A DNA stretch of 64,000 nt from a virus: IMG/VR virus record IMGVR_UViG_3300035204_002571, positions 1-64,000 of that record; one strand, written 5' to 3'. The translations under genes were made by a program, and so were the position numbers. The stretch's first letter is position 1; each line of letters opens with the position of its first letter. The notes beneath the pieces were generated by a model. It made no database searches, was not told where the DNA came from, and worked only from the letters and a program-made list of their open reading frames with translations. Shown here piece by piece: positions 12,149 through 56,286 of this stretch.

Positions 12149-15100
12149 ATGGCTAATATACCCGGAATTTCAGGTTTCATACAACCTGGGGCTTTTGCAA
12201 GAGACAGAGTTATTACTCGCGGTGTCTCTATTCCCGGCGGATTAAGAATAGTTTGCGTCATGGGCGAAGGTCATAGACTAGAAACTATTGTACAATCCGC
12301 TGCAGGCGGAGGTGCGGACGGAGATTCTGACTGCAGTCCAACAGGAAGTGGCGATGGACGGTTTTTTTCGCTTCAAAACTCTCCAGTTATAAGCGGCAGA
12401 ACAGAGCTTAGATTAAATGGAACACTTTTATTTGGAATAGAGGACGAGATTGATGCAGGAGGTTTTAGTTCAGCATTTGACTTTAGGCTGGACCCAGACA
12501 CAGGCTGTATCGAGCTACAAGGTGCATCAATTGGCGACCAGGATGGCAATGGTTATTCTGCAAGCAGCATGAATATAGGGACAGGAACCCTGATAGAGCA
12601 AGATTGCAGTCCGCATTCTACTTTAGACATTCTTGATAGCACGGCTCCTAATGAAAGATGGACAATAAGGTGCGTGAGCGTGGTAAGGGACTCGAATGGA
12701 GACCCTATACCAGGACTTGCTACATTTACAGCCACAGGGTCTACATCTGGACTATTGTATGATTCTGCTGGTAGCCCAATTACTTTTCATAGTTCATATT
12801 ATACATCTGGCAATGGTGCGGTATCTGGCTCTGCAAACGAGTGTGATGACGGATTTGTTGTTGCTTTTGGCGATGCAAGTGGAAATATGTTCGGAACAGG
12901 CTCTGTCGTATTGAGCGATGGAGACGCGACAGCTGGGACTTCGTCTAGATTTGATATTCTAGGTGCAGACTTGGTAGAGCATGGACAGGCACTAGCTGGC
13001 GACTTTTTATGTTTAGATGGATATGCAGGATACGAGATTGAAAGTATTGAGTCTGATGGGACAGATACCACAATAACCGTAACTACAGATAGTCTTGAGG
13101 GCGCTGGCGCTGGTGTTGGCGACTGGACTGACGTAGCTTGGGAGGTAAGGGCTGTTAATCTTCTTATTGACGACGAATCTGTTACGCATGATGTCAGTGG
13201 AAACGCGGTTCTTTTAGATAGCGAAGGAAGCTTCTCAAGTGCAGATATAGGAAAGACTGTAGTTATGTGTCCTGGCAATCTTTTTGCTGGAGGAAAGTAT
13301 ACAGTAGAGGCGGTTACATCGACAAGAAGATTGAGGCTTCATCAATTAGACGATGACTCTTCAGGGTTTCCTGACGCAGCAGAAGATGTGGCTACGTCAG
13401 GTCTTGCAGATACTGGTTTGACATTCCATATGTTAGAAAACAATGGCGTGTTACTGCTGGGGATTGAAGAAGGCTCTGTCGCATTCGAGGTTGGTGATAA
13501 ATTTTATGTAGATGTAAACTCAAGATCTTTAGCTGCAGGTGATGAGTTGGAGGCTGCATATATTTATGAAGCAGATCTTAATGATCCTCAATTTTTTACA
13601 GAAGCTATAGACTTGTTTCACAAGCATGGACTGCCAAGTGAAGATAATACTTTAGCGCTTGGATCCGTAATGGCTATGGAGAATGGTGCCCCAGGTGTCC
13701 TAGCCATACAGTGTAAACCTCCAGTTCCAAGAAGAACTACGGTTACGCTTGTAGAGGAAAGAGACTCCCTTGGTGTTGGAGGGTTTTCAAGCTGCTTCTC
13801 GATAGCTGCAGGAGAATCTGGAGACGCTTGCGAGGTTGATGACCTAAGGTTTGTTATCCCAAGGCCAATAACCGGCCTGCGAAACGGAAGACCTGATCCA
13901 GATACAAGGGTTAATATCTTTTTCGTAAGAGATGGTGAGGACATTCAGTTATTCCCAAACAAAGTTGATTTCTACAATTCTCAGTTAGAATCTGATATTC
14001 AACAAGGAAATTGGATAGAGAGTTCTGATAACTCATTTTCTTACACAATCGTTAATTCGGAAGTGGATATAATTGGCAATGGCGACGAAGGAGAGATTGA
14101 TGAAGACGAAACAGGTGTTTACTTTACAACATCAGAGTTTGATTTTGATGGATCGCATGTAAACTCCGTCATTGTTATTACAAGTCTTGAGGATGCCACT
14201 GAAGCTTGGGATTCCAGGTCAGCAACAACTCAGGAAGATGAAATAGCAGCAGAGCTTGGATTACTTAATAATGGCGTAGAGCTTGTAATTACAGCTATTG
14301 CGGATGACTCCAAGGTGTATGTGGCAGACAATAATAACGGAGAAAGCTTGACAGGATTACTGACCTCTTCTTATGAAGATGTTCAATATTTCATAAAAGA
14401 CTTAGAAAACAGTAGTGATGACGCTTCGCTGTTGCTTCATAAAGATCTAGTTACAAGCGGAGCATTAAAAGAGGGCGATGGCATTAAGATTTCTTACATA
14501 GATGAGAATGATGCAGACTACTTTGATACTAATTGGTTTAATGCGCTAGAGGCGCTAGAAGCTTCGGATGCTCAGATAATGGTTCCACTTCCTTCACAGG
14601 CTATTTCCTCTATCTTTAGAGCGACGGTAAATCACTGTGAGAACATGAGCTCTGTTGCAAACAGGAAAGAGCGAGTTGCGTTTATTGGAGCACAAATGGG
14701 CGTTACAGCCGAAGCTTTGATTGGCACAGAAGAGGTTGCAGTTGAAGACATAGGAATACTAGAGGGTGTTCAGGGCGATGATCCAGAAGAGGTTTTGGCC
14801 GGAAATGTAGAGGATCTTGTAAACTTTAAGCTTAGTGATAATTACACAAGCAATCGATGTGTTTACTTTTTCCCAGATTCAGTAGTGAGAAACGTAAATG
14901 GAACAAATATTGAGTTGCATGGATTTTACATGGCTGCAGCGGCAGCGGGATATTTATCTGCAAGACAGAATGTGGCTATCCCACTAACTCACAAGGCCTT
15001 GTCAGGCTTCTCTATAACAAGAGATAATGTTTTTAGGCAAATTACTTTGAATAGCCTTGGAAACGTCGGCGCTACAGTTGTTGAGCCTGTTACCGGAGGT

Positions 15101-15439
15101 GGCAAGGTTCTGGCCGGAAGAACTACGAGTAATTCAGGATATGTCGAAGATGAAGAGATCTCAATAATGTTTATCAGAGATCATGTCAAACGAGTCTTAA
15201 GAAGTTCGTTAAAAGGATATATAGGAGGGGTGCAAAGTGCTGATACAAATGTTCTTGTATCTGCAAGAACCAACTCTATTATGTCAGGTCTTATTTCGCA
15301 AGGTTTGATTACAAGTTATAAAAATATCTCGGTTGAACAAGATAAAGTTGATCCGAGGCAAATCAATGTATACCTGCAATTTACTCCAGCCTATCCTATA
15401 AATTACATATTTATAGATATAGAAGTTGGGGTCGTTTAA
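12149..15439 (+). CDS. Contractile tail sheath protein with large inserted domains (1096 aa)
   Basis: N-terminal 'FIQPGAFAR'; C-terminal sheath core 'NHCENMSSVANRKERVAFIG...AAAAAGY...PLTHK...EEISIMFIRD...DPRQINVYLQFTPAYPINYIFIDIEV'. Confidence 0.93.
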   Translation: MANIPGISGFIQPGAFARDRVITRGVSIPGGLRIVCVMGEGHRLETIVQSAAGGGADGDSDCSPTGSGDGRFFSLQNSPVISGRTELRLNGTLLFGIEDEIDAGGFSSAFDFRLDPDTGCIELQGASIGDQDGNGYSASSMNIGTGTLIEQDCSPHSTLDILDSTAPNERWTIRCVSVVRDSNGDPIPGLATFTATGSTSGLLYDSAGSPITFHSSYYTSGNGAVSGSANECDDGFVVAFGDASGNMFGTGSVVLSDGDATAGTSSRFDILGADLVEHGQALAGDFLCLDGYAGYEIESIESDGTDTTITVTTDSLEGAGAGVGDWTDVAWEVRAVNLLIDDESVTHDVSGNAVLLDSEGSFSSADIGKTVVMCPGNLFAGGKYTVEAVTSTRRLRLHQLDDDSSGFPDAAEDVATSGLADTGLTFHMLENNGVLLLGIEEGSVAFEVGDKFYVDVNSRSLAAGDELEAAYIYEADLNDPQFFTEAIDLFHKHGLPSEDNTLALGSVMAMENGAPGVLAIQCKPPVPRRTTVTLVEERDSLGVGGFSSCFSIAAGESGDACEVDDLRFVIPRPITGLRNGRPDPDTRVNIFFVRDGEDIQLFPNKVDFYNSQLESDIQQGNWIESSDNSFSYTIVNSEVDIIGNGDEGEIDEDETGVYFTTSEFDFDGSHVNSVIVITSLEDATEAWDSRSATTQEDEIAAELGLLNNGVELVITAIADDSKVYVADNNNGESLTGLLTSSYEDVQYFIKDLENSSDDASLLLHKDLVTSGALKEGDGIKISYIDENDADYFDTNWFNALEALEASDAQIMVPLPSQAISSIFRATVNHCENMSSVANRKERVAFIGAQMGVTAEALIGTEEVAVEDIGILEGVQGDDPEEVLAGNVEDLVNFKLSDNYTSNRCVYFFPDSVVRNVNGTNIELHGFYMAAAAAGYLSARQNVAIPLTHKALSGFSITRDNVFRQITLNSLGNVGATVVEPVTGGGKVLAGRTTSNSGYVEDEEISIMFIRDHVKRVLRSSLKGYIGGVQSADTNVLVSARTNSIMSGLISQGLITSYKNISVEQDKVDPRQINVYLQFTPAYPINYIFIDIEVGVV

Positions 15440-15453
15440 AATAGGAGAAAGAA

Positions 15454-16089
15454 ATGGCAAGTTATCCAAGCACAAAATCTATACTCGATAATCCAGATAA
15501 TGGCTCTAAGACAAGAACCGGTTTATCAACCCAGATTATCGTGTATGTTAATGGCGAACCTGTTGGCGCAATACAATCTTTTCAAGAGACCCAACAGAGA
15601 GCTAATAAGAGAATTTCAGAAGTAGGTACAGATGGTGTAATTGAAATCGTTCCTCAGTCACCAGCGCAGGTGACCATGACGGTTCAAAGAATTGTTTTCG
15701 ACGGTCTTTCTTTGCCGGAATCATTCTCAAGAGGGTTTAAGAACATTCATGCTCAAAGAATTCCTTTTGATATTATTGTTTTAGATAAGTTTACCGGCAC
15801 AGGTAATGATGCTGTAATGACGACTTATCACAACTGTTGGTTCAGCAATTTGTCAAAGACTTATCAGGTTTCTGATTATACTATCGTAGAGAATGCAAAT
15901 ATTGATGCAGAATTCGTATCCTCCTCAAGAGGCGGGCCCGAAAAGGCTGTTGCATTAAGTCAAGGCGTGGCTGGCTCTCGCGAGATAGCAGGAAGAGACA
16001 CGGACAGTGTCGAACAGGCTGCTGACGCAGGTGCATCAGGCAGACGAGGCGCTCTAGACTTCCCGGGGCTTATATCTGCAGCTTACTAA
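15454..16089 (+). CDS. Tail tube protein
   Basis: Follows the sheath; 'IIVYVNGEPVGAIQSF...EVGTDGVIEIVP...PFDIIVLDK...TYHNCWF...IVENANI' tube pattern. Confidence 0.88.
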   Translation: MASYPSTKSILDNPDNGSKTRTGLSTQIIVYVNGEPVGAIQSFQETQQRANKRISEVGTDGVIEIVPQSPAQVTMTVQRIVFDGLSLPESFSRGFKNIHAQRIPFDIIVLDKFTGTGNDAVMTTYHNCWFSNLSKTYQVSDYTIVENANIDAEFVSSSRGGPEKAVALSQGVAGSREIAGRDTDSVEQAADAGASGRRGALDFPGLISAAY

Positions 16090-16108
16090 ATATAAAAGTC
16101 TAATATTA

Positions 16109-16146
16109 AAAAACACCATCTTTTTCAAGATGGTGTTTTTATTTTT
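16109..16146 (+). terminator. Rho-independent (potentially bidirectional) terminator after sheath-tube
   Basis: Perfect inverted repeat AAAAACACCATCTT (16109-16122) / AAGATGGTGTTTTT (16127-16140), loop TTTC, followed by ATTTTT. Confidence 0.85.
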
Positions 16147-16167
16147 ATAAAAGAGTATAACAAATAT

Positions 16168-16175
16168 AGTACAAT
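16168..16175 (+). promoter_or_regulatory. AGTAYAAT (-10-like) motif upstream of the chaperone gene
   Basis: AGTACAAT 28 nt before ATG, just after the terminator; same motif at 20106, 27859 and 62933, and GGTATAAT at 56311. Confidence 0.4.
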
Positions 16176-16195
16176 CTAATGAAAAGGAGATTTGC

Positions 16196-16687
16196 ATGGC
16201 CAGAAGAACTGCAAAGATTACTCGCCCTGAAGAAAGTAATGAAGAAAATATAGAAATTGAGCGTGTCGAAGACGGTGATCTTCAGGGTGAGGACGATAGC
16301 GAAACACTGCTCAACTTGGGAAACTTAAGAGACCTGGTCTTTTTAGGCAGACTCAAGGAAGTGGTGGATATTGAGGGATTCAAGTTTGTGGTAACTACCC
16401 TATCTACTCAGCAACAGGTTGATATTATGCACCAAGTTATGAAGACTGATGCAACTGATAGAATTCTTGATATAAAGCCAATAACTGTATCTTATGTTAT
16501 TGATTCGATCAACGGAGTTCCGCTTGAGGAGATCTGTGATGATGATAGTATAACCAATGTGGAAGATAGGCGATTATCTGTAGTTTATGGCTTGCAGTCT
16601 CTTGTTGTAGAAAGACTATATCAAGTATACGAAAAACTTGTTGAAGCGTCTGGTGAAGAAGTTGGTTTAGACCTTTTAAAAGAATAG
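16196..16687 (+). CDS. Tail assembly chaperone (lambda gpG analogue)
   Basis: Between tube and tape measure; acidic 163 aa; ends in a slippery site. Confidence 0.8.
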   Translation: MARRTAKITRPEESNEENIEIERVEDGDLQGEDDSETLLNLGNLRDLVFLGRLKEVVDIEGFKFVVTTLSTQQQVDIMHQVMKTDATDRILDIKPITVSYVIDSINGVPLEEICDDDSITNVEDRRLSVVYGLQSLVVERLYQVYEKLVEASGEEVGLDLLKE

Positions 16688-16711
16688 CCGAGGAGCCAAT
16701 CAGCAGGCTCC
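16675..16711 (+). other. Programmed -1 ribosomal frameshift site (T TTA AAA plus downstream hairpin)
   Basis: X XXY YYZ heptamer at 16675-16681 in the correct phase, one codon before TAG. The -1 frame is open into the 16801..17127 ORF. GGAGCC/GGCTCC stem at 16692-16711. Confidence 0.85.
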
Positions 16712-47700: not shown

Positions 47701-50700
47701 GGAAGGTTCCAGGGGGCAACGTCTGGAGTTATGACCGGAATTACTCCAATCCATATTTATGATGACTCAATAAGCATAAAAGTTTCATTGGCAATAAGCA
47801 ACTCTGGTCAGCCACTGATATTGGTCATCGACGGCTTCTCAGAGGAGATAATTGACATATCGTATTTTAATTGGGACGATGGATTCTTTAACGTTCTTTC
47901 ATTGATTAAGGATATGGAAAATGAAACAATCACAATTACATCCGAGGGCCAAATATTAAGCAAGCTTAATATTAATGATTTTGAAGAGGGCGATACTGAG
48001 GCGTGTGGAAAAGATCTCCGTGATAAATCACCATTTTTTGCAATACACCTATTTGATGCATCGTTGCTAAATATAGTTGATTTTCATAATAAATATTCTG
48101 GAAATATTATAGATATAGGCTTAATAGAGTATAGCGCAAGATTAGAGGATGGTGTTAATGCTTTCGAAGATGAGGATATCTTTATAAGCACAGACTCCAA
48201 GATTGAGTTTGAATTCAATGTAGTTGCTGCCGAAGATGGATATTTAGATGGATATTTAGATGGATATTTTGAAGGTTACGGGTACTCTTCGGATCAAGAG
48301 TTTGATGTAGATGAGGTTTATTTTACATCAGATAAGCTTAGGTATGTTTTTGATAGCGGTGAGGGTGGTTCGGAAAATAGAATCTCTATTTTTAAGGATG
48401 GCAAAGGATTCATGAATTTTAGAATTTATGACAACTCTCTGTCTGCAAGGGGCGATGTTAACATGTATAATATTGCAACAAACATAAAAGACTTTAAACC
48501 AGGAGAGCTTCATCATGTGGCAGCCAGTTGGAGATTGAATACTATTTATGAAAAAGACGAGATGCACCTGTTTATAGATGGTCTTGAAGCTCCAAATATT
48601 TATAAATTCGGCGGACCAGTTCTGGTAAGGATTAATGATAAATTTTCAGATATAAGCAAGGAGGTCTTGCAAGACTTTTTGGTAGATGGCATTGATTTTT
48701 GCAATACTTTTTCAGACGGAACAACCCTGGCGGGATCATCTACTTTTTCGTCAAATCAGGCAGGGTTCACATCAGATATGGTTGGAAGGTCTGTAATATT
48801 CTTAGAGTCCAGTATAGCTCCAACATATGTCGGCAAAGAGTATATTATAAACAGTGTAGATGGAAACAGTGTAACATTTGTTAGGGGTAGTGATTTAGAT
48901 ATAGTTTCTTTTGATACCTCGGCTTCTGATATAATCTTCATGCTTCCTCCGACCGCCGGAATCAAGATGCCGATTGCAACAGATCTGAGAAATAGTGAGT
49001 TTGCGATATTTAAAACAAATTGCGAAGGAGAAGAAGAGGAGCTAGGCGGCGTATTGTATACGGTTGAGGATGGGTCGATAAATGTTCTTAATGGAGAAAA
49101 TGTAATAAATCCACAATATCGAGCTAATATAGATACGAAAATAGTTGAGTTTATAGGGAAAGATGATGAATGCAATTTTACAGGAACTATTGATTTTTCG
49201 GATTTAGATATTCATATAAAAACATTTGGATTGATTTATGCAAATTGCAATGACATAATAAATTTGTCGAGTTCGTCATATTATGTATTAGACAAGAAGG
49301 AATATGATGTTAATAGCGGAAAGAGTGTTATTTTGTCGCATGCGGCAGAGCCTGTATCTCTTGAGGATGTGACAATAAAAAGAATAGTGCTGCCAAGAGT
49401 GATTCCAAGCTTTGAAGATATTAGCGAAGAGTGGGATTACCCATTTGCCAAGATAGAGTTTGAGATGCCTTTGGAGAGTAACGATGGAAGCACGCTGTTA
49501 AGCTGTCAGCCAGGCCAGGTCTATAAAAAGAATGCCGGCAGATATTTGACGTTAAATTTTGATTCTGATAATGTCGTTTTTTGCGGCGAGCTTGACGGGT
49601 ATGTAGATGGGTATGAAGAGGCTGATGCGTATCCAAATATCATAAAGATCGTAGGAGAGACTGTTGACGGAACTAATTATGAAGAATTTACTGTAACAGG
49701 GAATGGAGACATTCATGGCAAAAAGTTGTTTAAATCTGTACAAGAGGTGAAGGGCAGGCTCTACCTGGCCGATTCGGACTACGAGCCATGTGTGATTAGC
49801 ATTTCTGAAACCAACTCTATAACGGTTTCCAATAATGATGGAGAATATGCAGAGGTATTTAAGTATACAAATGGAAGTCTTGTCTTGACATCGGTTGGGT
49901 CGAATGGAGTTTACCCCTTTGAACTGCACCCAGGCAGCTATCATCTGAGCTATCCTGCATTTTTAAAGATAGCCATACCAAATGTTGGAGATAAGGCATA
50001 TATCGGATGCGATATGAATAGCCAGAATCAATTTGGAGGTACAATAGATGAGTTTAGAGTCATAACAGAGATGTCAAGCGACACAAGGCCTACCGAGAGC
50101 GACACAAATGGCACAAGAAGCATTACAGAGGATTATCTGAATCCTAATCCGCATTGTGCAGATGATCAAACGCTTGTATTGGCACACTTTGATGACCCCA
50201 TAGACCTTCAGGCTAGAAAGCTAAGACAGAAGGAGTTTTTAAATACGGAGAGCAACTTTAAGTTCAAGCTGGACTTGGAGGATAGGGAGACACTATTGTC
50301 TTATATAAATAATAAGGATTTATTTGTATCAAAGATGATCCGTATGGGCTATGAGAGGGATGCCGCAATAGAAACGTATATTGAGTGTCACCATGCAATG
50401 GGCGGCCCGCTGTTTAATGAGGCAAAGTTTGTACGAAGCGATGAGATGTTAGTCAGCTCAAGCAGTGTTAATGATGAGTTTGGGCTATCTGCCAAATTCT
50501 TTAATACCCCACCTCTGGTTATGAATAACAGACTTTCTTACTTCAGAAGAAACGAGGGAACGATTGAGTTTTGGGTAAGTCCGCTTATGGATACAGTTGG
50601 AGATGAAGAAGATAGGTATTATGTAGATATTTATTCAATTACAAGAAAAAGAGTTAAATCTTTTTCTCCCACGATAATAGATCTTCCATCTTCTGCTAGA

Positions 50701-51666
50701 GAAATTGTTGGGATACAGCTTATGGAAAATACGCAAGAGTTTTCAGAGTTCTTTTCGCAAGATGAAGTGGATCATGTTTTGTTTGATGATATTTATAGAA
50801 GCGAAATAACCGGCAGACTAACAGGGGGCACTGGCGTTAAAAAGGATTTCTCAATAGGCAGCCGACTTAGTGCTGATGGAAGAAGGGTTTTTCTGGCAGA
50901 AGCTCTTCCGGGAGCGAATGTAGATGTTATAGTTTCATATGCATCTATTGATTCTTCTGGAGACAGGGTATCTGTTTATAAAAACAAGAATAGCCAAATT
51001 GTTTTTTCAATTACTGCAAATGGCGCGGTTAATTCGTTAGTGAAAGATGTTGACTGGGGTAGGAATACTTGGCACAGGATTATGTGTACATATAAAACAA
51101 ATTCTAGCGCTGATACTATGAGGTTGTTTGTCGATGGCGATGAAAGTGGGTTTGTAACATACGGTGAGAATGGGGTTGTATATGGATCCGGGTTTGTATA
51201 TGGCCAAACCACGCAGGAACTCGGAGCATCAAAGCAGGTTGGTTACAATATATCTTTAAAAGATGACTTCAGATTGGTTTGCATTGGATCTGATGTTTTT
51301 GAAAAACAATCAGCATTGTCTAGAATAGATAATATAAGATTTAGTAGAATAATGAGAAACGCGGCAAAAGGGCCGTCTGGAGAATATATAGATACAAATT
51401 ACTCGTCTAATACAGATACTGTGCTTCCTGTGGTTAAAGATAATTCTACAACTATAATTTTAGATTTTGAAGAGGAGAGTTATGAAGATAAATATGCAAC
51501 AGTTATTGATCCGGCAAGTGGGATATTCAACTTTGACATAGAAGTATTAGATAATTTTAGTAATATTAATAGTGATGAAGTTGAAGATTTGATTGTAGAC
51601 TTGGTTAATAGATTAAAGCCGGCGCACACAAATGCATTAGTAAAATTTCCAAGAGAATCATGTTAA
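41719..51666 (+). CDS. Giant baseplate wedge protein (P2 gpI/T4 gp7-like core) carrying two LamG/ConA-like domains (3315 aa)
   Basis: Follows J. 'YRSALEGTMQAFTKGPTIPAFEALVESFT' and terminal 'LVNRLKPAHT'. LamG motifs: EGTISAW/EGTIEFW, HHVAASW/WHRIMCTY, LFIDG/LFVDG, GTIDEFRV/IDNIRFS. Confidence 0.75.
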   Translation: MLRPVSFSIPSSTELRVKFNDEPNELLSKDNFLVESVSGNIDDLEVTKVAIDGRAVIVTTRPQVVGNFYVLKLLDSDEVLFTSAKGTPLVNDDVSRELFFIGLKNHNPIRDRMVSKVPKLYNLENSNVNKIIEAQAEELFQAQKHIGELLSDNYISVDVVDEQRTRSSGATDRLINENAYLVKRVSEKLTNASLTFDTINYTEDSGIDGHFSIPNYPISLQEVYEEDEEISLSSENNSFKGFLISLTNKNVIKLTNLKLIKSTDEEDCNEETGTEYNISLYKYSINNNRYDPTYAFSNIDLESNQVLLSEFGNIDEPTVGDTIMVSYLYKDVGRKVNEASIEIYNLQEVESESVPTNITRFFLDNAPIVDSNNDVPERGGVTFRTGENLSDVPDEFQRELVFNASKLPSKLGEYAIDYSTGEVIVVGAEEIGDGTGANNNIASYLYRNVFSKNLDYYIKDDEFVASSNRSIVNEEVSIDFNYDKVYVEGVDYRAPCHTEVFNEYVENNFESSFVIKPKNTPITNVFRIFNQTTGEVYPLLYHTRDEVVFSGVRSPEFRTEISELADFNLVELEKLSPIGEFVCPAFSVTISANASNSNIQFYPGIPAELIDYNSQDYFIRSTGLDGSDDLEDLQIRFFGEPDSDNLIQSVAISSTATAPSLKEVVTIGTKGLVFSLDNSYIINNSRDAIGSHVNTSAEFSRYDLFLVEKYFNELSSNPGTERVGDDSLASSILSSKGDDFYENLSRLRRVGDYCIDYKHGQVYLAMSYDQDYELGSVNYRHGAITTFNRNIIGVTEATKKLISSDSLEDSTIIYDKVSNTSEEASILDLENTILLPDGETMALNSDGELDDICIILDDYTVVLPNKASDVNGIYTLSSLEGDNLSSSVREIREEDLGSDLINELVKNGGGNLYDSTFMTFEDNVIDLKKTYSTRVAESGDDYTIIINDSEFGEIYKIIHTSSGAEIFDEKLNVIKLDDLEVVYAEQDEDEVIIDIKSGPILDSLDVNGDFLLDSRGSRFRIVDFDPETSQVVVLTPAENNVEAELPELGGAQVIVKASVTSSDTGVVIVIPSDSYINDRDPIDVIYTTSNTPSAGTKVGVDLRSGRLYLNYLYSYDDVYVSYEYGDNEIDWSIGSSILEGQSYHVTYKYGALRDALKKNFGILTKIPFFQRFSINTDRELYRSALEGTMQAFTKGPTIPAFEALVESFTDISPEITESVFGNWILGRDFLSPEELKADGTLEFKTCKFGEGVMINNDTAIYMPAVSNINLDEGTISAWICPEWAGVDNDATLTIDIDNIGTKNYIYRIGSNPFDYDNHFNILASEHAVGGSDYSSPSITLHNFTSSWKDGVEGGEEEEFIGAFALTKEEPSIDRSVKTELDLSLKVSSFSAPEAINPPRRRPSEDLPFNRANLGILGLGKSLSDASRGLIVAGSEEDLYRFCSPAFVSIGDKEKLLFMMFSLRPLFNPESGRIYTFRVGYEHIEANEIPDYNRLHVTQNCVCSVDDTLEELSKFRDKDFQSIKVDLDFNIDFGYIKDVDVPFDNVPSSFRILDTRGAVYEVYAFLDEDDNVILDEIPNTVSGFIVNRIPENQQYITAQGAEAINDLLPTGEITVLYQTMSVLTNVDPDAKKYIGYEGKSYIVDWMSDFVNFNILRDPMNNNVEITVKSSVDSSKKNIKLFYTDLIDVEMEEAIYEGLNFDKWFNIVGDVTSVNNSSSLSNKIAVGTLDRTTKSVIDIGRLKYSVHNRFSEEDVYIGASARNPLRIPFDVNKYDFPDTSVGLPYNADSDEGLFICFDELCLSPLAEDAGQWVFRSRAGNSIYAPTSVYPTEDGHEFGYSYVPLSHVFSGTINTDGEFSSVVRAHRDEDGTGCPTGLVCSSEYRYCGDGLLEGTEKGSGWRRINETSSELINILIGGSQGESSAWMKFGHFNTSAIGGVYRAGPSEPHADNCNHDVTDPAGGNHLYTKLPCYGGDYSATVSFKVSEVDHKIVNSSAGRFQGATSGVMTGITPIHIYDDSISIKVSLAISNSGQPLILVIDGFSEEIIDISYFNWDDGFFNVLSLIKDMENETITITSEGQILSKLNINDFEEGDTEACGKDLRDKSPFFAIHLFDASLLNIVDFHNKYSGNIIDIGLIEYSARLEDGVNAFEDEDIFISTDSKIEFEFNVVAAEDGYLDGYLDGYFEGYGYSSDQEFDVDEVYFTSDKLRYVFDSGEGGSENRISIFKDGKGFMNFRIYDNSLSARGDVNMYNIATNIKDFKPGELHHVAASWRLNTIYEKDEMHLFIDGLEAPNIYKFGGPVLVRINDKFSDISKEVLQDFLVDGIDFCNTFSDGTTLAGSSTFSSNQAGFTSDMVGRSVIFLESSIAPTYVGKEYIINSVDGNSVTFVRGSDLDIVSFDTSASDIIFMLPPTAGIKMPIATDLRNSEFAIFKTNCEGEEEELGGVLYTVEDGSINVLNGENVINPQYRANIDTKIVEFIGKDDECNFTGTIDFSDLDIHIKTFGLIYANCNDIINLSSSSYYVLDKKEYDVNSGKSVILSHAAEPVSLEDVTIKRIVLPRVIPSFEDISEEWDYPFAKIEFEMPLESNDGSTLLSCQPGQVYKKNAGRYLTLNFDSDNVVFCGELDGYVDGYEEADAYPNIIKIVGETVDGTNYEEFTVTGNGDIHGKKLFKSVQEVKGRLYLADSDYEPCVISISETNSITVSNNDGEYAEVFKYTNGSLVLTSVGSNGVYPFELHPGSYHLSYPAFLKIAIPNVGDKAYIGCDMNSQNQFGGTIDEFRVITEMSSDTRPTESDTNGTRSITEDYLNPNPHCADDQTLVLAHFDDPIDLQARKLRQKEFLNTESNFKFKLDLEDRETLLSYINNKDLFVSKMIRMGYERDAAIETYIECHHAMGGPLFNEAKFVRSDEMLVSSSSVNDEFGLSAKFFNTPPLVMNNRLSYFRRNEGTIEFWVSPLMDTVGDEEDRYYVDIYSITRKRVKSFSPTIIDLPSSAREIVGIQLMENTQEFSEFFSQDEVDHVLFDDIYRSEITGRLTGGTGVKKDFSIGSRLSADGRRVFLAEALPGANVDVIVSYASIDSSGDRVSVYKNKNSQIVFSITANGAVNSLVKDVDWGRNTWHRIMCTYKTNSSADTMRLFVDGDESGFVTYGENGVVYGSGFVYGQTTQELGASKQVGYNISLKDDFRLVCIGSDVFEKQSALSRIDNIRFSRIMRNAAKGPSGEYIDTNYSSNTDTVLPVVKDNSTTIILDFEEESYEDKYATVIDPASGIFNFDIEVLDNFSNINSDEVEDLIVDLVNRLKPAHTNALVKFPRESC
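48235..48270 (+). repeat. 12-bp tandem repeat x3 encoding DGYL-DGYL-DGYF
   Basis: GATGGATATTTA GATGGATATTTA GATGGATATTTT. Confidence 0.9.
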
Positions 51667-51673: not shown

Positions 51674-51685
51674 TATTAATAATCT
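51674..51685 (+). promoter_or_regulatory. Candidate late-promoter motif (copy 3)
   Basis: TATTAATAAT, 50 nt before the SD-supported ATG at 51724. Confidence 0.5.
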
Positions 51686-51723
51686 TGGATGTATCGATAA
51701 GTGTTAAAGCTAGGAGATGTTTG

Positions 51724-54700
51724 ATGGCAAAGGCTAATAGAGAAAAGCTTTCGAGAGTAAACTTTTTTGACGGCCAAAGAGTAACGGAGGCAGATTTAGA
51801 TGATGAGCAAATTCATCATCGTGGTCTAGTCTCTAGTTTAACTAAGGACTTTCATGGAAGCGGTATTGTAAGAGACCGTCTTTTTGAAAGCTATGTTTTA
51901 TTGGATACTGGCGATCCTGGAGCCTATTTAGGCGATAATGAAGAAAATGAATCAGAATTTGTAATCAACTCAGGGACTTATGATGGTAGGGCGATTTTTT
52001 TGGATCGTCAGCCGAGCGATACTGTATATGGAAACAGACTTGAGATTGAGGCTTCAGGGCTTGATGTCGGAGGAAGGCTCACCACAAAGGTTCTGATTAT
52101 TGGGGCTGCTTTTAGCAGCCTGAGTGATACTGGGGAACTTGTATCTGAAGTTATAGAATTTAATGAAAATGTTACAAAGGTTACAGAAAATTATTATACA
52201 CGAGTTGTAGCTGTATTTTTTAATAACTTTTCCGGAGGAACGGGCAGGACCGAGAATAGTTTAAGCGAACAAAGCTTGAATCTATTGACAGATGATGGAA
52301 AAATTGTAATAAGAGAAGCTGAACCATTTAAGGTTTTCGCAAGAACTCAGACCTCTTTTCAGACCAGCTCTCCCAGTATAGAGCTTGCCAACTTTATAAC
52401 ATCTAGCGAAGAATTATCTATAGAGGACGAGATAAAAGAAGGCCTTGGCTCTGTATATAACTTTAATGATCTATATTTTGAATTAGAGGCCCAAGAGGAA
52501 GTAACTTTCAGTGTCGATGGGGACCAGACCACTTCTTATGGACAAAAGTTTTTAGCAAAAGCAGACAATATTCAAAAAATTGATCTTTTATTTTCAGTCG
52601 AAAGAGATGAAGATGCACATTCTGGAGAGGAATATTTCTTCTCCGGAGATATCGTTATATCGATACATAAGTTATCAACAGATATACAATGTGTAACAGA
52701 TCCTCATCCAGATAATTTAATAGACTTTGATCCAGAGCCCTCTCCTATTATGGAGATGTCATACTCCCAAGAGGACCTTGAAGCTCTAGGATATAAGCTG
52801 GATGACACGCCTAAGGTTGTTAGCTTTGATTTCTCTGGAACGTTAATTGCAGATCCGGGGATAGAGCCTTCGCTTGAGGTTGGCGAATATTACGCAGTTC
52901 TAATTAGTCGCCGTGGTGACAATAGAACTGGAACCATTGTTATGCAAAAGGGATACGATAAAGCCTCAAGAAAAATTGGCAATGGCCAAACGCTAAATGT
53001 AATTGAAAGCTTTGGCAAGCAAACAACAAGGTTTATAGAATTTGATCCAAATAATTTGGTATACGTTGATGACATGGATTCATCGTTATGGTTTGTTGTT
53101 CATTCTGATACAGTTGAAGTTACAGACGGAATAGCGTACACCGATGACGGCTTCTTGGTCGTATTGCCAAAAACAGAAGAATATGTTGGCAGCACAGAGA
53201 TCTCTTCCTTTATGAGGGATGTGGCGCTTGCCGATGTATCTGAGGGAACAGACAATTTAGTTGTTCTTCAGCGGCAAGATAACTTTGAAACGCCAGGAAT
53301 ACACCCTAGAACTGGAAACTTTGTAAACACAAGAGTGCAAGACTCACCATCTATTTCGGTTATGTCAACCGATGAGTGGGAGAGTGTAGATGCAGATTAT
53401 CCCCCTATTTTACTTGCAAGGGTTCAGGATAATAATGTAAGAGAAGCTCAAGATATAACGGGAACATTTGATCTGCCTGGATTGGTAGCAAGCAGTGAGA
53501 TCATATTTGTAGACCCTGATTCGGATATGATTAATGAAAACCTGATAAACAGGGTAATAACTCCGGATTTGGATTGCGAGTGTAATGCCAGATATAGAAT
53601 CGTAGGAGTAACATGTGAAAAAGCATATGCTGGAGATCTAAATGGCGATGAGGAAATAACAACTAGTGATATAGTTGATTTGTTAAATGTTGTCGGGAAT
53701 ACTATAAATACAGAAACGACAGAAAGAAGAATTCTCGGCGGTGAGCTAGACCTTGTAGACTTTATAAAGTCAGACCTAAACGAAGACGGGACAGTCGACG
53801 GTTTTGACATAGAGCTAATAGAAGACGCCGTAGATGGATATACCAATTTTACTGTCGAAGAGTCCTTTAATGTATTAACCTTAAAGTTAGAAAATATATT
53901 GGAAGAAGATGATTACCCAGTCTTGTTTGAGGATACGTCATCATCTGGAACTACAGAGAGCCAGGAAGACATTGTTAATTTTGTAACTGATGAGGAAAAT
54001 CAGGCATTAGCAATCAGAATAGGGGATCAGGTCGTTATACCATCAGATTCGTCTGATGCCGGTGTGTACCTGGTTTATTCCAAAACTGTAGACGAAACAG
54101 GTGTAGGAGTCACCCTTTCTGTTACAGATACAGATGGAGAAGAGGTAAGTTTTTCAGGGTCCAGCGCAGGGTTTGATGTTATAATTACAAGCGGAACAAG
54201 GGTCAATCTTTTTGCAGATAACTTAAAGCTTTTGAACGTCCCGTTTGAAGAGAAGAATTGGGCAATATCGTATATTGGAGCACCACATCAGAGTGAGTTT
54301 GTTGATGTATGCGACTTAAGAAGATATGTAGAAACAAACTTTATAGAAGAGTTTGAAGAAGTATGCGTTTGCGATGAAGACCCGTGTATAGAGACTGGCG
54401 ATTGTACTCCTCAGTATAAAAATCAAAAAGTCTTAGCAGATGATTTGTTTATTCCAAGCGGAGAAATTTACAAAGAGCCTGGAGTTCCTTATCATGGCGA
54501 TATAGAGTATTCTACAATAACTATTCCCCTGCCTCCTGGCACTATTGATGACTGCGAAATTGATTTATATACAAACTTTATAAAAGCAGGTTCGGGAAAG
54601 TGCAAAACAGAGTCTGGCTATCCTGCTATGAAGTATTCGGACGGCACGTATGTCGGATGTGAAGATTCAGGGGCAGAAACAGATATAACAAAAGGAAAGG

Positions 54701-56286
54701 TAAAGATAACTCAGTGTATTGCAAGTCTTTATGTAGATGCTTTTGTAGATGGGTATGCTGTAGATGGGTATGCTGATGAAGAAGACGTATCAACATCCGC
54801 AGAAGTTATTGCCGAAAACTTTACAGATCATACTTATCCAAATACGTCTGGATTTTCCGAATGGGCTCCATCTCCCCCTCTTAGCTACCTGGTGGCCTCT
54901 GCCGCCTCGGGATCGAATGAGCCAGTATTTTTTGATTTAGAAACGATTAATGCCGGAGAGAGATACGCAAGAATAAGCCAGCCTTCTGCTTCGGATAACA
55001 TCTCTGGAGATTTTGTTATAGACATAAGAATGTCAAGAACGATTTGGGATGAGAATGAATTAAAGTTTGGAAAAGTTGGATTTTTTACATCATTGGTTAT
55101 AACGAATGATGATGGGACGGAGTCGACTCTCAAGCTTGGGTGGAGACAAACTGCGTATCAAAATGTAGAATTATTTTATAGCGGAGAGATCGTTGACACA
55201 ACGGCTGGAACCGTTGTAAGTGATTTTGATTTCTCCGTAGAAGCGGGAGATGACTTAGGAGACGAAATAAGGTTTAGGCTAAGAAGGGTCAATGAGGCTG
55301 TTTTTGCCATGTATTTTGACGATACTCTTTTGGATTTTTCCGAAAACTTTACTGGCCAACTTGTAAGAATAGGTACAGCACCAGATGTGCAGCCTGGAGC
55401 CGGAGATGCTAGAGCGCATGTTGAAATGGCGCAATATGATAACCCAAATGTTGGAGTTATATACGCAACAACTCTTCATGATATGGTGATTAGATATGAT
55501 TACTCTTCGGTATCTTCAGCAGAAGAGGAATCGGTTGTGCTGAGCAGGGATTCAGACGGCTTAATTGACAGAACTACGGTGACATTCCCAATGCTATTAA
55601 CGCAAAGGACAAATATTGTATCAGCAACATTAAGCATGACTGTTGCCGATGAGGTCGATGCGGCTTCCGCAGTAGAAAGCTTTAATATTATACCTTATGA
55701 TATATTAAATGCAGATAATCTTGGAACCTTGATTGATTATCCGTTAGAAGAAAATGACTCATTCATAGTTACGTTTGAGCCTGGAGAGGCTGTGACCGGT
55801 TCAACAATAGACGTTGACGTAACCTCTCTCGCAATATATTATCTATCACAATCAGGGCATCTGCCAGGATTTTATAAGGCATTAATTATAGAGCCAAGCG
55901 CTACAGCTGAGGCTAGTTTAACAATTTTGCCCAGCATAACCTTGACAGTAGAATATGAAGATATAACCACAGGGGTTGTATTCAAGGTTGGTACAAACTT
56001 GGATCCTAGCACTGGGATAGTATCCTTGCAAACAAAGAATATTTTGTATGATTCATTAAATGAGGCAAATAGAACGGTTTTGAAATTTGGAGTTCATCTT
56101 AAAAAATCAGGATTTATGAATGATGACGTAATTATAGGCATTAAAGATCTTGCAAGAATAGGCATAGGTACATGTATTGATGAAACAGATTTCGAAGAAG
56201 ACGAGCTTTGTTTCTTTATCGCAGGCAGCACTGCAACCGGAACCTTTGTCGAAGGTCCGTTCCCCTGCTATTTCCATCTACCATAA
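51724..56286 (+). CDS. Baseplate-attached fibre-like protein with a dockerin-type duplicated Ca2+-binding domain (1520 aa)
   Basis: Start moved to ATG 51724 (AGGAG SD). N-terminal 'RVNFFDGQRVTEADLDDEQ...HGSGIV' resembles fibre-attachment N-termini of contractile tails. 'GDLNGDEEITTSDIVDLLNVV...SDLNEDGTVDGFDIELIEDAV' dockerin repeats. Confidence 0.7.
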   Translation: MAKANREKLSRVNFFDGQRVTEADLDDEQIHHRGLVSSLTKDFHGSGIVRDRLFESYVLLDTGDPGAYLGDNEENESEFVINSGTYDGRAIFLDRQPSDTVYGNRLEIEASGLDVGGRLTTKVLIIGAAFSSLSDTGELVSEVIEFNENVTKVTENYYTRVVAVFFNNFSGGTGRTENSLSEQSLNLLTDDGKIVIREAEPFKVFARTQTSFQTSSPSIELANFITSSEELSIEDEIKEGLGSVYNFNDLYFELEAQEEVTFSVDGDQTTSYGQKFLAKADNIQKIDLLFSVERDEDAHSGEEYFFSGDIVISIHKLSTDIQCVTDPHPDNLIDFDPEPSPIMEMSYSQEDLEALGYKLDDTPKVVSFDFSGTLIADPGIEPSLEVGEYYAVLISRRGDNRTGTIVMQKGYDKASRKIGNGQTLNVIESFGKQTTRFIEFDPNNLVYVDDMDSSLWFVVHSDTVEVTDGIAYTDDGFLVVLPKTEEYVGSTEISSFMRDVALADVSEGTDNLVVLQRQDNFETPGIHPRTGNFVNTRVQDSPSISVMSTDEWESVDADYPPILLARVQDNNVREAQDITGTFDLPGLVASSEIIFVDPDSDMINENLINRVITPDLDCECNARYRIVGVTCEKAYAGDLNGDEEITTSDIVDLLNVVGNTINTETTERRILGGELDLVDFIKSDLNEDGTVDGFDIELIEDAVDGYTNFTVEESFNVLTLKLENILEEDDYPVLFEDTSSSGTTESQEDIVNFVTDEENQALAIRIGDQVVIPSDSSDAGVYLVYSKTVDETGVGVTLSVTDTDGEEVSFSGSSAGFDVIITSGTRVNLFADNLKLLNVPFEEKNWAISYIGAPHQSEFVDVCDLRRYVETNFIEEFEEVCVCDEDPCIETGDCTPQYKNQKVLADDLFIPSGEIYKEPGVPYHGDIEYSTITIPLPPGTIDDCEIDLYTNFIKAGSGKCKTESGYPAMKYSDGTYVGCEDSGAETDITKGKVKITQCIASLYVDAFVDGYAVDGYADEEDVSTSAEVIAENFTDHTYPNTSGFSEWAPSPPLSYLVASAASGSNEPVFFDLETINAGERYARISQPSASDNISGDFVIDIRMSRTIWDENELKFGKVGFFTSLVITNDDGTESTLKLGWRQTAYQNVELFYSGEIVDTTAGTVVSDFDFSVEAGDDLGDEIRFRLRRVNEAVFAMYFDDTLLDFSENFTGQLVRIGTAPDVQPGAGDARAHVEMAQYDNPNVGVIYATTLHDMVIRYDYSSVSSAEEESVVLSRDSDGLIDRTTVTFPMLLTQRTNIVSATLSMTVADEVDAASAVESFNIIPYDILNADNLGTLIDYPLEENDSFIVTFEPGEAVTGSTIDVDVTSLAIYYLSQSGHLPGFYKALIIEPSATAEASLTILPSITLTVEYEDITTGVVFKVGTNLDPSTGIVSLQTKNILYDSLNEANRTVLKFGVHLKKSGFMNDDVIIGIKDLARIGIGTCIDETDFEEDELCFFIAGSTATGTFVEGPFPCYFHLP
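54745..54774 (+). repeat. 15-bp tandem repeat x2 encoding VDGYA-VDGYA
   Basis: GTAGATGGGTATGCT twice, preceded by degenerate GTAGATGCTTTT. Confidence 0.88.

What the first reader, a model, noticed from the sequence alone, without database searches (positions are those of the whole stretch)
13013..54774. Recurrent, tandemly amplified [LV]-D-G-Y motif across unrelated tail proteins: candidate modification or docking tag
Seen: at least ten DGY occurrences in four non-homologous virion proteins, nine preceded by L or V. They are sheath LDGYAGY (13013), 2664-aa LDGY (28648), 3315-aa EDGYLDGYLDGYFEGYGY (48232-48285) and LDGYVDGY (49591-49614), and dockerin protein VDGY (53830) and VDGYAVDGYA (54745-54774). 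The motif was expanded independently three times with different codons and unit lengths (12, 12 and 15 bp), each time in acidic linker-like sequence. That pattern suggests selection on peptide copy number rather than one DNA slippage event. Inference: a sequon for post-translational modification (for example Tyr O-glycosylation, known from some Gram-positive S-layers, by the adjacent GT array), a protease site, or a binding site for a decoration protein. I know of no described function for it in phage tails.
Basis: partly seen in the sequence, partly recalled or inferred. Interest (0 to 1): 0.8.

Follow-up and report, generated by a model that had tools for sequence, protein, structure and literature searches.

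The report
Conserved Asp-Gly-Tyr repeats in phage baseplate
Two giant baseplate proteins and the sheath of this uncultured marine huge phage carry a strictly conserved Asp-Gly-Tyr motif, in the two baseplate proteins as short repeats whose number varies between relatives in one of them, which looks like a surface tag read by some other factor (perhaps the phage's own sugar-adding enzymes), although no modification has been shown.

Summary
All ten DGY occurrences are at the stated coordinates. Within this window alone they do not exceed chance. With tandem copies collapsed there are 6 sites against 4.4 expected (P=0.27), and [LV]DGY ranks only 67th among equivalent patterns.

Homologues change the picture:
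- The 2664-aa protein's LDGY is a chance hit; it is not conserved in 17 homologues.
- The sheath site and the site next to the dockerin-like module are conserved single copies.
- The three tandem arrays, two in the 3315-aa protein and one in the 1533-aa protein, persist in over 100 homologues each, down to about 40% identity.

The real motif is (D-[G/A]-Y plus 0-2 spacer residues)n, not [LV]DGY. Copy number runs from 0 to 9. Unit codons follow background synonymous usage, Tyr is almost never replaced by Phe (1 DGF against 368 DGY), and spacers are never basic, Pro or Asn. AlphaFold places the arrays in low-confidence loops or linkers, one directly before a lectin-like jelly roll.

A GT4 glycosyltransferase gene follows the 1533-aa gene in 22 of 22 related loci. 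My best reading (about 0.4) is an exposed short linear tag read in trans, most plausibly a Tyr acceptor for the adjacent glycan enzymes. This is unproven. A plain hinge, metal binding and partner docking remain open.

The scan has noted DGY enrichment before on other huge-phage genomes.

The parts
12149..15439 (+). Tail sheath gene (1096 aa). The conserved sheath core is at the C-terminal end (Pfam and PHROG matches within about aa 790-1094); about 750 aa of extra domains lie before it.
   Evidence: PHROG tail sheath 1e-17 and Pfam Phage_sheath_1C, sub-threshold; 858 homologues
13013..13024 (+). Single LDGY (aa 289-292) in the sheath's N-terminal extra-domain region, within the conserved context G-D-x-L-C-[LVI]-D-G-Y.
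   Evidence: Conserved in 6 of 6 homologues that cover it, down to 30% identity. 51 of 68 distinct close sheaths have at least one DGY: 65 against 15.9 expected.
28648..28659 (+). LDGY (aa 253-256) in the 2664-aa protein: a chance occurrence, not part of the feature.
   Evidence: Present only in the 81%-identical homologue and absent in 16 others. Family DGY is 0.73x expectation.
41719..51666 (+). Gene for the 3315-aa giant baseplate or peripheral tail protein with ConA/LamG-like domains.
   Evidence: Pfam Laminin_G_3 at aa 3073-3158, E 3.5e-11; more than 100 full-length homologues of 3100-3470 aa on contigs up to 437 kb
48232..48285 (+). Array 1 (aa 2172-2189): three DGY units with spacer L, then EGY and GY. 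It is a perfect 12-nt x3 DNA repeat. It is followed by a sub-threshold LamG-like segment at 48349-48594.
   Evidence: TRF. The site holds 0-9 D[GA]Y units in 102 homologues and at least one in 99 of them. Low pLDDT. LamG_3 E 0.0037. One contig from an independent marine run lacks exactly one 12-nt unit at 48234.
49591..49614 (+). Array 2 (aa 2625-2632): LDGYVDGY in a loop after the conserved F-D-S-D-N-x-x-F-C strand.
   Evidence: 0-4 units in homologues; the loop is deleted in part of the distant clade. pLDDT is below 50 at model residues 625-637, between strands with pLDDT of about 90.
51685..56286 (+). Gene for the 1533-aa baseplate or fibre protein (database form 1520 aa), with a dockerin-like module and a lectin-like jelly roll.
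   Evidence: 133 homologues with E <= 0.001, the best 120 listed; Dockerin_1 at 22.3 bits against a cut-off of 22.9, at 53629-53823
53830..53841 (+). Single VDGY (aa 716-719) directly after the second dockerin-like helix, in the conserved context E-D-A-[VI]-D-G-Y-[VI]-N-F.
   Evidence: Conserved in most of the 120 aligned sequences (query and homologues); a minority have DGS, DGN, EGS or EGF.
54745..54774 (+). Array 3 (aa 1021-1030): VDGYA x2, a perfect 15-nt x2.1 DNA repeat, in the conserved context V-D-A-[FL]-[VI]-DGY-A-x-DGY-A-D-E.
   Evidence: Two copies in 88 of 91 arrays and three copies in 3. The distant clade keeps only the second DGY. pLDDT is below 50 at model residues 220-226.
54799..55581 (+). 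ConA / legume-lectin-like jelly-roll domain (aa 1039-1299) immediately after array 3.
   Evidence: AF2 pLDDT mostly 96-98. Foldseek hits to the Tenebrio amylase-inhibitor complex (a bean lectin-like inhibitor), peanut lectin, ERGIC-53, VIP36 and the phage J-1 Dit CBM2, E about 1e-6.
56327..57412 (+). First GT4 glycosyltransferase of the downstream glycan-synthesis cluster (candidate reader or modifier; inferred only).
   Evidence: Pfam Glycos_transf_1 7.7e-11. An orthologue lies directly downstream of the 1533-aa gene in 22 of 22 related loci. Weak PDB sequence hit to chlorovirus glycosyltransferase B736L, E 0.001.

Best explanation
The ten DGY hits are a mixture. One, in the 2664-aa protein, is chance. 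The other five sites belong to a real, selected short linear motif: Asp, then a small residue (Gly, sometimes Ala), then Tyr. It sits in exposed, flexible loops or linkers of outward-facing tail parts: the sheath's extra domain, the 3315-aa protein and the 1533-aa protein.

In the two giant baseplate proteins the motif is arrayed in tandem, with 0-2 non-basic spacer residues between units. Replication slippage keeps changing the number of units. Purifying selection keeps each unit exactly D-[G/A]-Y.

Neither spacing nor number is fixed, yet the Asp carboxylate and the Tyr hydroxyl are indispensable. So the units behave as independent recognition sites rather than as a periodic fold.

Inferred, not shown: the units are read in trans. 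The most plausible reading is that they are Tyr acceptor sites for the soluble glycan-building enzymes encoded directly downstream (GT4 array, GT29, nucleotide-sugar and sulfo/methyl/acetyl tailoring enzymes). That would give the lectin-bearing periphery of the baseplate a sugar coat.
For: Shown:
- The arrays are conserved at the same alignment positions in 102 homologues of the 3315-aa protein and 119 of the 1533-aa protein, down to about 40% identity, while the flanks diverge.
- The distant clade retains a single DGY at site 1.
- Unit codons match background synonymous usage (GAT/GAC 0.68/0.32, four Gly codons, TAT/TAC 0.79/0.21). Adjacent units are identical in 26 of 85 cases against 13% expected. 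This means selection on the peptide plus ongoing slippage.
- Inside the inserts the counts are DGY 368, DAY 43, EGY 11, DSY 9, DGF 1 and NGY not seen.
- None of the 139 spacer residues is K, R, H, N, P, W, C or M. Basic residues are depleted at +1.
- Spacing of 0, 1 or 2 residues is mixed within single arrays.
- pLDDT is below 50 at arrays 2 and 3, which are flanked by confident domains. Array 3 sits directly before a lectin-like jelly roll.
- Family-level enrichment is 3.7-8.9x in the sheath, 3315-aa and 1533-aa families. It is 0.73x in the 2664-aa family and 1.1x in the downstream enzymes. EGY and NGY are not enriched.
- In sheath representatives DGY occurs at many different positions, which points to independent gains.
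- The GT4a orthologue is adjacent in 22 of 22 loci. The cluster also holds further GT4 genes, GT29 x2, a KdsA-like enzyme, a CMP-transferase, two sulfotransferases, methyltransferases and a GNAT.
- A one-unit (12-nt) deletion appears in a contig from an independent marine run.
Against: - No modification, binding or cleavage has been observed.
- The window by itself shows no enrichment once tandem copies are collapsed.
- GT adjacency is universal in this family, so it cannot be correlated with DGY load. L021 has only single DGYs and still has GT4a.
- The GT cluster could equally serve host-surface or DNA modification.
- Array 3 has a fixed copy number and fixed flanks, which looks more like a folded or partner-bound segment than a generic sequon.
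- AF2 monomer disorder does not prove exposure in the assembled baseplate.
- Family counts are not phylogenetically independent.
- DGF is also 3.2x enriched in sheath representatives.
Confidence: 0.4

Rival explanations
1. The arrays are plain flexible hinges. They are acidic, Gly-containing interdomain linkers whose length drifts by slippage and sets the reach of the lectin-like domains. DGY persists because the ancestral unit (a turn plus an aromatic anchor at a domain boundary) is what slippage copies. Nothing reads it.
For: - Perfect DNA repeats in the window.
- Copy number differs between 91%-identical relatives and between runs.
- The loops have low pLDDT.
- The site-2 loop is dispensable in a distant clade.
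- The distant clade has just one DGY in a fixed context at the start of the next domain.
Against: - Synonymous sites in the units are randomised, yet D, G/A and Y are retained. Tyr to Phe occurs once against 368 DGY. A mere hinge should tolerate F, E, N, S or T.
- The same tripeptide is enriched at many non-homologous positions of sheath outer domains.
- Generic turn tripeptides such as NGY are not enriched.
Confidence: 0.25
2. The units are a docking or assembly segment. They fold on binding to another virion protein, either between subunits in the baseplate or with a decoration or cohesin-like partner. They then act as multivalent contacts.
For: - Array 3 is conserved in sequence, length and flanks, yet the monomer prediction leaves it disordered. 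This is typical of segments that order only in a complex.
- The two array-bearing genes are adjacent and always syntenic.
- A dockerin-like module lies 300 aa upstream.
- Copy numbers at sites 1 and 2 correlate (Spearman 0.40, not phylogenetically corrected).
Against: - Copy number of 0-9 and spacing of 0-2 in the 3315-aa protein are hard to reconcile with a defined interface.
- No partner has been identified.
- No multimer prediction was possible.
Confidence: 0.15
3. The units are hard-cation binding sites (Ca2+, or Fe3+ in sea water). Asp carboxylate and Tyr phenolate at positions i and i+2 would act as ligands, in the same geometry as the His-x-His iron sites of the T4 long-tail-fibre tip. 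The ions would stiffen the linker.
For: - Strict need for Asp and for the Tyr hydroxyl.
- A small residue between them, and no basic residues nearby.
- Marine origin.
- Neighbouring Ca-type modules (dockerin-like, lectin-like) and strong DGT enrichment.
- The T4 analogy rests on my own knowledge of the gp37 structure and was not tested here.
Against: - The oligomeric state is unknown.
- Irregular spacing argues against a regular metal-ion ladder.
- A single D/Y pair is a weak site.
- No known metal-binding family matched.
Confidence: 0.12
4. The pattern is a chance or composition artefact: DGY recurs only because the proteins are rich in D, G and Y and contain slippage-prone DNA.
For: Within the window, 6 collapsed sites against 4.4 expected (P=0.27). 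[LV]DGY ranks 67th among equivalent patterns. The 2664-aa site is indeed chance.
Against: Positional conservation in more than 100 homologues of each of the two baseplate proteins, and in the sheath homologues that cover the site. Synonymous variation with residue retention. Specific enrichment against EGY and NGY, and in the two baseplate families also against DGF. No enrichment in neighbouring enzymes.
Confidence: 0.03

Closest known systems
Virion glycosylation of mycobacteriophages by phage-encoded glycosyltransferases (Freeman et al. 2023, Cell Host Microbe; as summarised in PMC12619734)
   Same: The phage carries its own glycosyltransferase genes next to structural genes. The proposed targets are exposed parts of virion proteins, with glycans built in the cytoplasm.
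   Different: In mycobacteriophages the glycans sit on the C-terminal tails of the capsid and tail-tube subunits. Here the candidate sites are internal D-G-Y units in the sheath and in giant baseplate proteins. The acceptor would be Tyr. The gene cluster is far larger (GT4 array, GT29, sulfotransferases). No glycan has been shown.
Tyrosine O-glycosylation of Gram-positive S-layer proteins (Paenibacillus, Thermoanaerobacter; reviewed in PMC2943079)
   Same: A glycan linked to a Tyr hydroxyl on a self-assembling surface protein.
   Different: S-layer glycans are assembled on a lipid carrier and transferred outside the membrane by an oligosaccharyltransferase. No DGY sequon is described for them (none was found in my searches). 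No lipid-linked machinery was identified among the cluster ORFs I scanned; membrane topology was not examined.
Slippage-generated coding tandem repeats and low-complexity interdomain linkers (for example the Pro/Thr linkers of cellulosomal proteins)
   Same: In-frame 9-15-nt units, perfect DNA copies, copy-number polymorphism between close strains, location between folded carbohydrate-binding-type domains, and predicted disorder.
   Different: Ordinary linkers tolerate wide residue substitution. Here a three-residue core is held exactly (Tyr to Phe once against 368 DGY) over deep divergence, and it recurs in non-homologous proteins.
Tyrosine-sulfation sites (acidic, turn-rich, free of basic residues, often clustered)
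   Same: Clustered Tyr in a strongly acidic context with Gly and Asp neighbours and no basic residues. Two sulfotransferase genes lie in the adjacent cluster.
   Different: The sulfotransferases found belong to Pfam Sulfotransfer_2 and Sulfotransfer_4, not the TPST/RaxST-type Sulfotransfer_3. Typical sulfation sites have the acidic residue at -1, not Gly.
His-x-His iron sites of the T4 long-tail-fibre tip (gp37); comparison from my own knowledge
   Same: Two ligand-capable side chains at i and i+2, repeated along a phage tail appendage.
   Different: O-ligands instead of N-ligands, irregular spacing, unknown oligomeric state, and no metal shown.

Membership tests
Slippage-driven coding tandem repeat (micro/minisatellite-encoded peptide repeat) | Head-to-tail, in-frame DNA units with high identity | tested here: met
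   TRF: 12 nt x3.0 at 100%, 12 nt x1.9 at 90%, 15 nt x2.1 at 100%. L011 has six identical 9-nt units.
Slippage-driven coding tandem repeat (micro/minisatellite-encoded peptide repeat) | Copy-number variation between close relatives or strains | tested here: met
   Three units here against two in the 91%-identical homologue. One contig of an independent marine run lacks one 12-nt unit, at depth 3 only.
Selected short linear motif (SLiM) in a disordered region | Core residues conserved while flanks, spacing and number vary, with synonymous change but little replacement | tested here: met
   DGY 368 against DGF 1; codon usage equals background; spacers of 0-2 residues.
Selected short linear motif (SLiM) in a disordered region | Lies in an exposed or disordered segment | tested here: inconclusive
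   pLDDT is below 50 at arrays 2 and 3 in AF2 monomer models. Array 1 lies in a long low-confidence stretch. The assembled state is unknown.
Phage virion glycosylation system | Phage-encoded glycosyltransferases linked to structural genes | tested here: met
   At least six Pfam-supported GT4-type genes begin 40 nt after the 1533-aa gene. GT4a is adjacent in 22 of 22 loci.
Phage virion glycosylation system | Glycan demonstrated on virion proteins | not testable with these tools
   Needs mass spectrometry or glycan staining of virions or co-expressed proteins.
Phage virion glycosylation system | Acceptor in C-terminal tails of capsid or tail-tube subunits (mycobacteriophage type) | tested here: not met
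   The candidate sites are internal loops of the sheath and baseplate proteins.
Collagen-like Gly-X-Y triple-helix repeat | Gly at every third residue over a run of triplets | tested here: not met
   Spacer lengths of 0, 1 and 2 are mixed (73/127/6 in the 3315-aa family). The window's units have periods of 4 and 5.
Tyrosine sulfation site | TPST/RaxST-type (Pfam Sulfotransfer_3) enzyme present | tested here: not met
   Only Sulfotransfer_2/_1 and Sulfotransfer_4 matches among 27 downstream ORFs scanned. Three terminal ORFs of the contig were not scanned.
Dockerin type I module (context of the aa-717 site) | Pfam Dockerin_1 above the gathering score | tested here: inconclusive
   22.3 bits against a cut-off of 22.9 in this protein. 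Several homologues carry a precomputed PF00404 hit.
ConA-like lectin / LamG jelly roll (domain after the arrays) | Fold match to lectin-type beta-sandwiches | tested here: met
   1533-aa protein: pLDDT 96-98 and Foldseek E about 1e-6 to legume lectins, ERGIC-53 and the phage J-1 Dit CBM2. 3315-aa protein after array 1: only a sub-threshold LamG_3 match, E 0.0037.

The most novel reading that the evidence does not exclude
D-G-Y is the sequon of an undescribed cytoplasmic protein-modification system of marine huge phages. The glycosyltransferase array encoded next to the baseplate genes, possibly with the sulfo-, methyl- and acetyl-transferases, would build a glycan on the Tyr hydroxyl of exposed DGY units. 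This would coat the sheath surface and the lectin-bearing baseplate periphery. Slippage would tune the number of attachment sites.
Probability: 0.27. Interest if true: 0.85.

Novelty: new variant of a known kind. Interest (0 to 1): 0.58.

Why it matters
If the DGY units are acceptor or recognition sites, this would be the first defined sequon for virion modification in tailed phages. It would also be a rare case of Tyr-directed modification. It would give a function to the very large glycan-gene clusters that huge marine phages carry beside their tail genes.

The motif is short, exact and conserved in hundreds of metagenomic relatives, so the idea is directly testable. Routes include peptide or fragment co-expression with the first GT4, or open-modification searches of marine viral metaproteomes.

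Even if nothing reads the motif, the arrays are a clear example of a coding repeat in which slippage changes the number of units while selection holds a three-residue core. That is useful for annotating these giant, otherwise featureless baseplate proteins.

Tried and rejected
- **Single-protein scan of viral contigs with the 1533-aa protein:** no relatives found. The alignment-based scan worked.
- **The look-up of encoding contigs:** Whole-contig context of homologues could not be fetched. No contrast between GT-lacking and DGY-lacking genomes could be built.
- **Sheath-based locus scan:** returned only close relatives, at 50% identity or more, so it gave no such contrast either.
- **Size limits:** They were repeated with fewer rows.
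- **Foldseek on the multi-domain 3315-aa fragment:** uninformative, TM 0.12 or less.
- **NCBIfam:** no meaningful hits for the giant proteins.
- **Literature:** no paper combines DGY with phage and tail fiber. DGY-array strings occur only in unrelated contexts, including an engineered mussel-inspired coacervate peptide.
- **Homology of the array flanks in the two proteins:** rejected (hhalign probability 3.9%).
- **Collagen-like repeat:** rejected, because the period is variable.
- **Generic beta-turn preference:** rejected. NGY and EGY are not enriched in any family, and DGF is not enriched in the two baseplate families, although it is 3.2x in sheath representatives.
- **DNA- or RNA-level motif:** rejected, because the codons vary synonymously.
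- **Membership in the 'moraphage' lineage (PMC12619734):** not tested.

Full report
**What the window is**

All large ORFs lie on the + strand of an 81,920-bp contig. The 1096-aa protein is a tail sheath. Downstream lie several giant proteins of 1747, 798, 2664, 667, 1107, 3315 and 1533 aa. From 56.3 kb onward there is a dense glycan-synthesis cluster. It holds at least six Pfam-supported GT4-type transferases, two GT29, a KdsA-like enzyme, a cytidylyltransferase and two sulfotransferases (Sulfotransfer_2 and Sulfotransfer_4). It also holds methyltransferases, a GNAT, WbqC, a DegT-type aminotransferase and a GDP-mannose-dehydratase-like enzyme.

Near-identical DNA occurs in seawater and marine-plankton metagenomes. 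Homologues sit on contigs of up to 437 kb. The element is therefore an uncultured marine huge myovirus.

**Check of the observation**

All ten DGY tripeptides, nine of them preceded by L or V, are at the stated places. The three arrays are true DNA tandem repeats:
- 48234-48269: 12 nt x3.0, 100%.
- 49597-49619: 12 nt x1.9, 90%.
- 54744-54775: 15 nt x2.1, 100%.

The four proteins are not detectably related. A profile-profile comparison of the two array regions returns only the DGY site itself, at 3.9% probability.

The statistical claim does not hold inside the window. Per-protein shuffles expect 4.4 DGY. With tandem copies counted once there are 6 sites (P=0.27). [LV]DGY is nominally enriched, with 6 sites against 0.68 expected. 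However, it ranks 67th among all patterns of the same form in the same proteins. The other large virion proteins of the window have none.

**What homologues show**

I collected 102 homologues of the 3315-aa protein and 119 of the 1533-aa protein. I also collected 17 homologues of the 2664-aa protein and 150 sheath representatives. In addition I fetched 30 viral loci spanning the two baseplate genes plus downstream DNA, and 80 sheath loci.

- **2664-aa protein.** The LDGY is present only in the 81%-identical relative. Family DGY is 0.73x expectation. This site is chance.
- **Sheath.** The context G-D-x-L-C-[LVI]-D-G-Y is kept in 6 of 6 homologues that cover it, down to 30% identity. Among 68 distinct close sheaths, 51 have at least one DGY: 65 against 15.9 expected. 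Nineteen representatives at 50% identity or less carry 29 DGY sites against 3.3 expected. These lie at many different positions in the variable N-terminal domains.
- **1533-aa protein, aa 717.** E-D-A-[VI]-D-G-Y-[VI]-N-F is conserved directly after the dockerin-like module.
- **1533-aa protein, aa 1022.** V-D-A-[FL]-[VI]-DGY-A-x-DGY-A-D-E is conserved, with two copies in 88 of 91 arrays. A distant clade keeps only the second unit.
- **3315-aa protein.** Both sites hold arrays in relatives down to about 40% identity. Site 1 has 0-9 units and site 2 has 0-4. The most distant clade keeps one DGY at site 1, as [IV]-DGY-[IV]-x-E-S-D-[IV]-D-E-I. At site 2 it has lost or reduced the loop.

**Anatomy of the motif**

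The unit is D-[G/A]-Y: 282 DGY and 36 DAY in 112 arrays of the 3315-aa family. Spacers are 0 (73), 1 (127) or 2 (6) residues. Spacers are S, L, Q, V, I, E, A, G, T, D, Y or F. None of the 139 spacer residues is K, R, H, N, P, W, C or M, although those residues make up about 23% of the proteins.

The [LV] prefix is not part of the motif. L/V/I precede 28% of DGY in the 3315-aa family (background 23%) and 30% in sheaths. The figure is 77% only in the two fixed sites of the 1533-aa family. The +1 position is almost never basic.

Within the two variable inserts the counts are DGY 368, DAY 43, EGY 11, DSY 9 and DGF 1, and NGY was not seen. The Tyr hydroxyl and the Asp carboxylate are therefore required, and the middle residue must be small.

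Codon usage in 133 units from 48 distinct arrays equals the background synonymous usage. Adjacent units are identical in 26 of 85 pairs against 13% expected. The peptide is thus under purifying selection, while slippage continues to add and remove units.

Slippage is visible at short range too. The 91%-identical homologue has two units where this window has three. One contig of an independent marine-plankton run lacks exactly 12 nt at 48234, though at depth 3 only.

**Specificity**

Across 26 non-identical loci, DGY is 7.8-8.2x expectation raw, or 3.6-5.5x collapsed, in the two baseplate proteins. In the roughly 40,000 aa of downstream enzymes it is 1.1x. In the structural proteins DAY, DSY, EGY, NGY, DGF, SGY, GGY and TGY are at 0.2-1.0x. 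These counts are not phylogenetically independent. Even so, the contrast with conservative variants of the motif, and with the neighbouring genes, is clear.

**Structural context**

- An AF2 model of aa 800-1300 of the 1533-aa protein (109-row alignment, mean pLDDT 80) gives pLDDT below 50 at the array. A beta-sandwich follows immediately, with pLDDT mostly 96-98. It matches legume lectins, ERGIC-53/VIP36 and the CBM2 of phage J-1 Dit.
- A model of aa 2000-2760 of the 3315-aa protein (mean pLDDT 68) puts array 2 in a loop with pLDDT below 50, between confident strands. Array 1 lies in a long low-confidence stretch.
- Sequence after array 1 gives a sub-threshold LamG_3 match to profile positions 38-103 (E 0.0037). 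Sequence after array 2 gives a very weak match to positions 115-142 (E 0.11). This is compatible with a split lectin-like domain, but it is not proof.

**Mechanism**

Shown: a selected three-residue motif with free spacing and number, in flexible segments of outward-facing tail parts of at least three non-homologous proteins. It is absent from the 2664-aa protein and from the enzymes.

Free spacing within one array (periods 3, 4 and 5) rules out a collagen-like or other periodic fold. It points instead to units that act independently.

Inferred: a trans-acting reader. The nearest candidate is the glycan cluster. Its first GT4 gene follows the 1533-aa gene in 22 of 22 loci that have downstream sequence. 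That gene has a weak PDB sequence match to a chlorovirus glycosyltransferase (E 0.001).

Universal co-occurrence cannot discriminate, however. The one distant locus I examined (L021) has only single DGYs and still has GT4a, though only GT4a and GT4c of the array.

A plain hinge is at 0.25, partner docking at 0.15, metal binding at 0.12 and artefact at 0.03.

**Comparison with what is known**

Phage-encoded virion glycosylation is established for mycobacteriophages, where it is found on the C-terminal tails of capsid and tail-tube subunits (Freeman et al. 2023, as described in PMC12619734). Tyr-linked glycans are known from Gram-positive S-layers (PMC2943079). Neither system uses a DGY sequon as far as my searches show.

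The acidic, base-free context resembles tyrosine-sulfation sites. The sulfotransferases here, though, are not of the TPST/RaxST Pfam family.

**Earlier scan notes**

The same motif was noted in an overlapping window of this genome. It was also noted in the homologous pair of proteins of another genome. Follow-up agents on several other huge-phage genomes reported 10-25-fold DGY enrichment in outer tail proteins and reached the same unproven sugar-tag reading.

I reproduced independently the family-level enrichment and the conservation. I did not test their claim that DGY and GT genes are gained and lost together.

**Verdict**

This window adds a dissection of the tandem arrays, covering unit definition, spacer rules, intolerance of Tyr-to-Phe exchange and codon evidence. 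It also adds copy-number dynamics, position before lectin-like domains, and invariant synteny with GT4a.

Noticed in passing
window, all ORFs; e.g. 49630-49660 (G-E-T-V-D-G-T) and the dockerin-like loops at 53629-53823: DGT is the most over-represented tripeptide in the window's proteins: 23 against 7.8 expected, p 7e-6. It is 3.0x expectation in the two baseplate families but 1.6x in the downstream enzymes. It may mark Ca-binding or turn motifs of the T-x-D-G-[ST] type.
   Followed up: partly
window 49602-49615, 54744-54757, 54759-54772: The same 14-mer (TGTAGATGGGTATG, encoding V-D-G-Y with the rare GGG glycine codon) occurs in array 2 of the 3315-aa gene and twice in the array of the 1533-aa gene. 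That is 3 matches against 0 in nucleotide shuffles. It could reflect gene conversion between arrays, or codon chance.
   Followed up: partly
window 56327-64000 and L031 (contig 62921-81920): A large soluble glycan-synthesis cluster lies directly after the baseplate genes. It contains a GT4 array, two GT29 (sialyl/Kdo-type) transferases, a KdsA-like enzyme, a DHDPS-like aldolase and a CMP-transferase. It also contains Sulfotransfer_2 and Sulfotransfer_4, two methyltransferases, a GNAT, WbqC, DegT, a GDP-mannose-dehydratase-like enzyme and a GSCFA protein. The order GT4a-b-c-d is conserved in most related loci.
   Followed up: partly
window 1677-6845 and 6848-10441: The adjacent 1722-aa and 1197-aa proteins are paralogues: 35% identity over about 1000 residues, E 4e-149.
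   Followed up: no
window 32018-32057: A perfect 21-nt tandem repeat (x1.9) lies inside the 2664-aa gene, in its coiled-coil region.
   Followed up: no
window 48286-49158 and 49615-50400: LamG_3 profile positions 38-103 match just after array 1. Positions 115-142 match about 125 aa after array 2 (both sub-threshold). This suggests a lectin-like domain split by a large insertion.
   Followed up: partly
homologues P0115 and P0235: Close homologues (82% and 62% identity) are filed in NCBI under a 'Candidatus Pacearchaeota archaeon' bin (locus tags CMI47_03215 and CMI47_03190). This is probably a phage contig mis-binned into an archaeal MAG.
   Followed up: no
3315-aa family consensus near the C-terminal LamG domain (alignments A2/A3; roughly window 51200-51350): A second Tyr/Gly-rich conserved stretch (Y-G-x-G-x-x-Y-G-x-G-x-x-Y-G-Q) follows the C-terminal LamG domain in the family consensus.
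   Followed up: no
3315-aa family, sites 1 and 2: Unit numbers at the two array sites correlate across 102 homologues (Spearman 0.40, p 3e-5, not corrected for phylogeny).
   Followed up: partly
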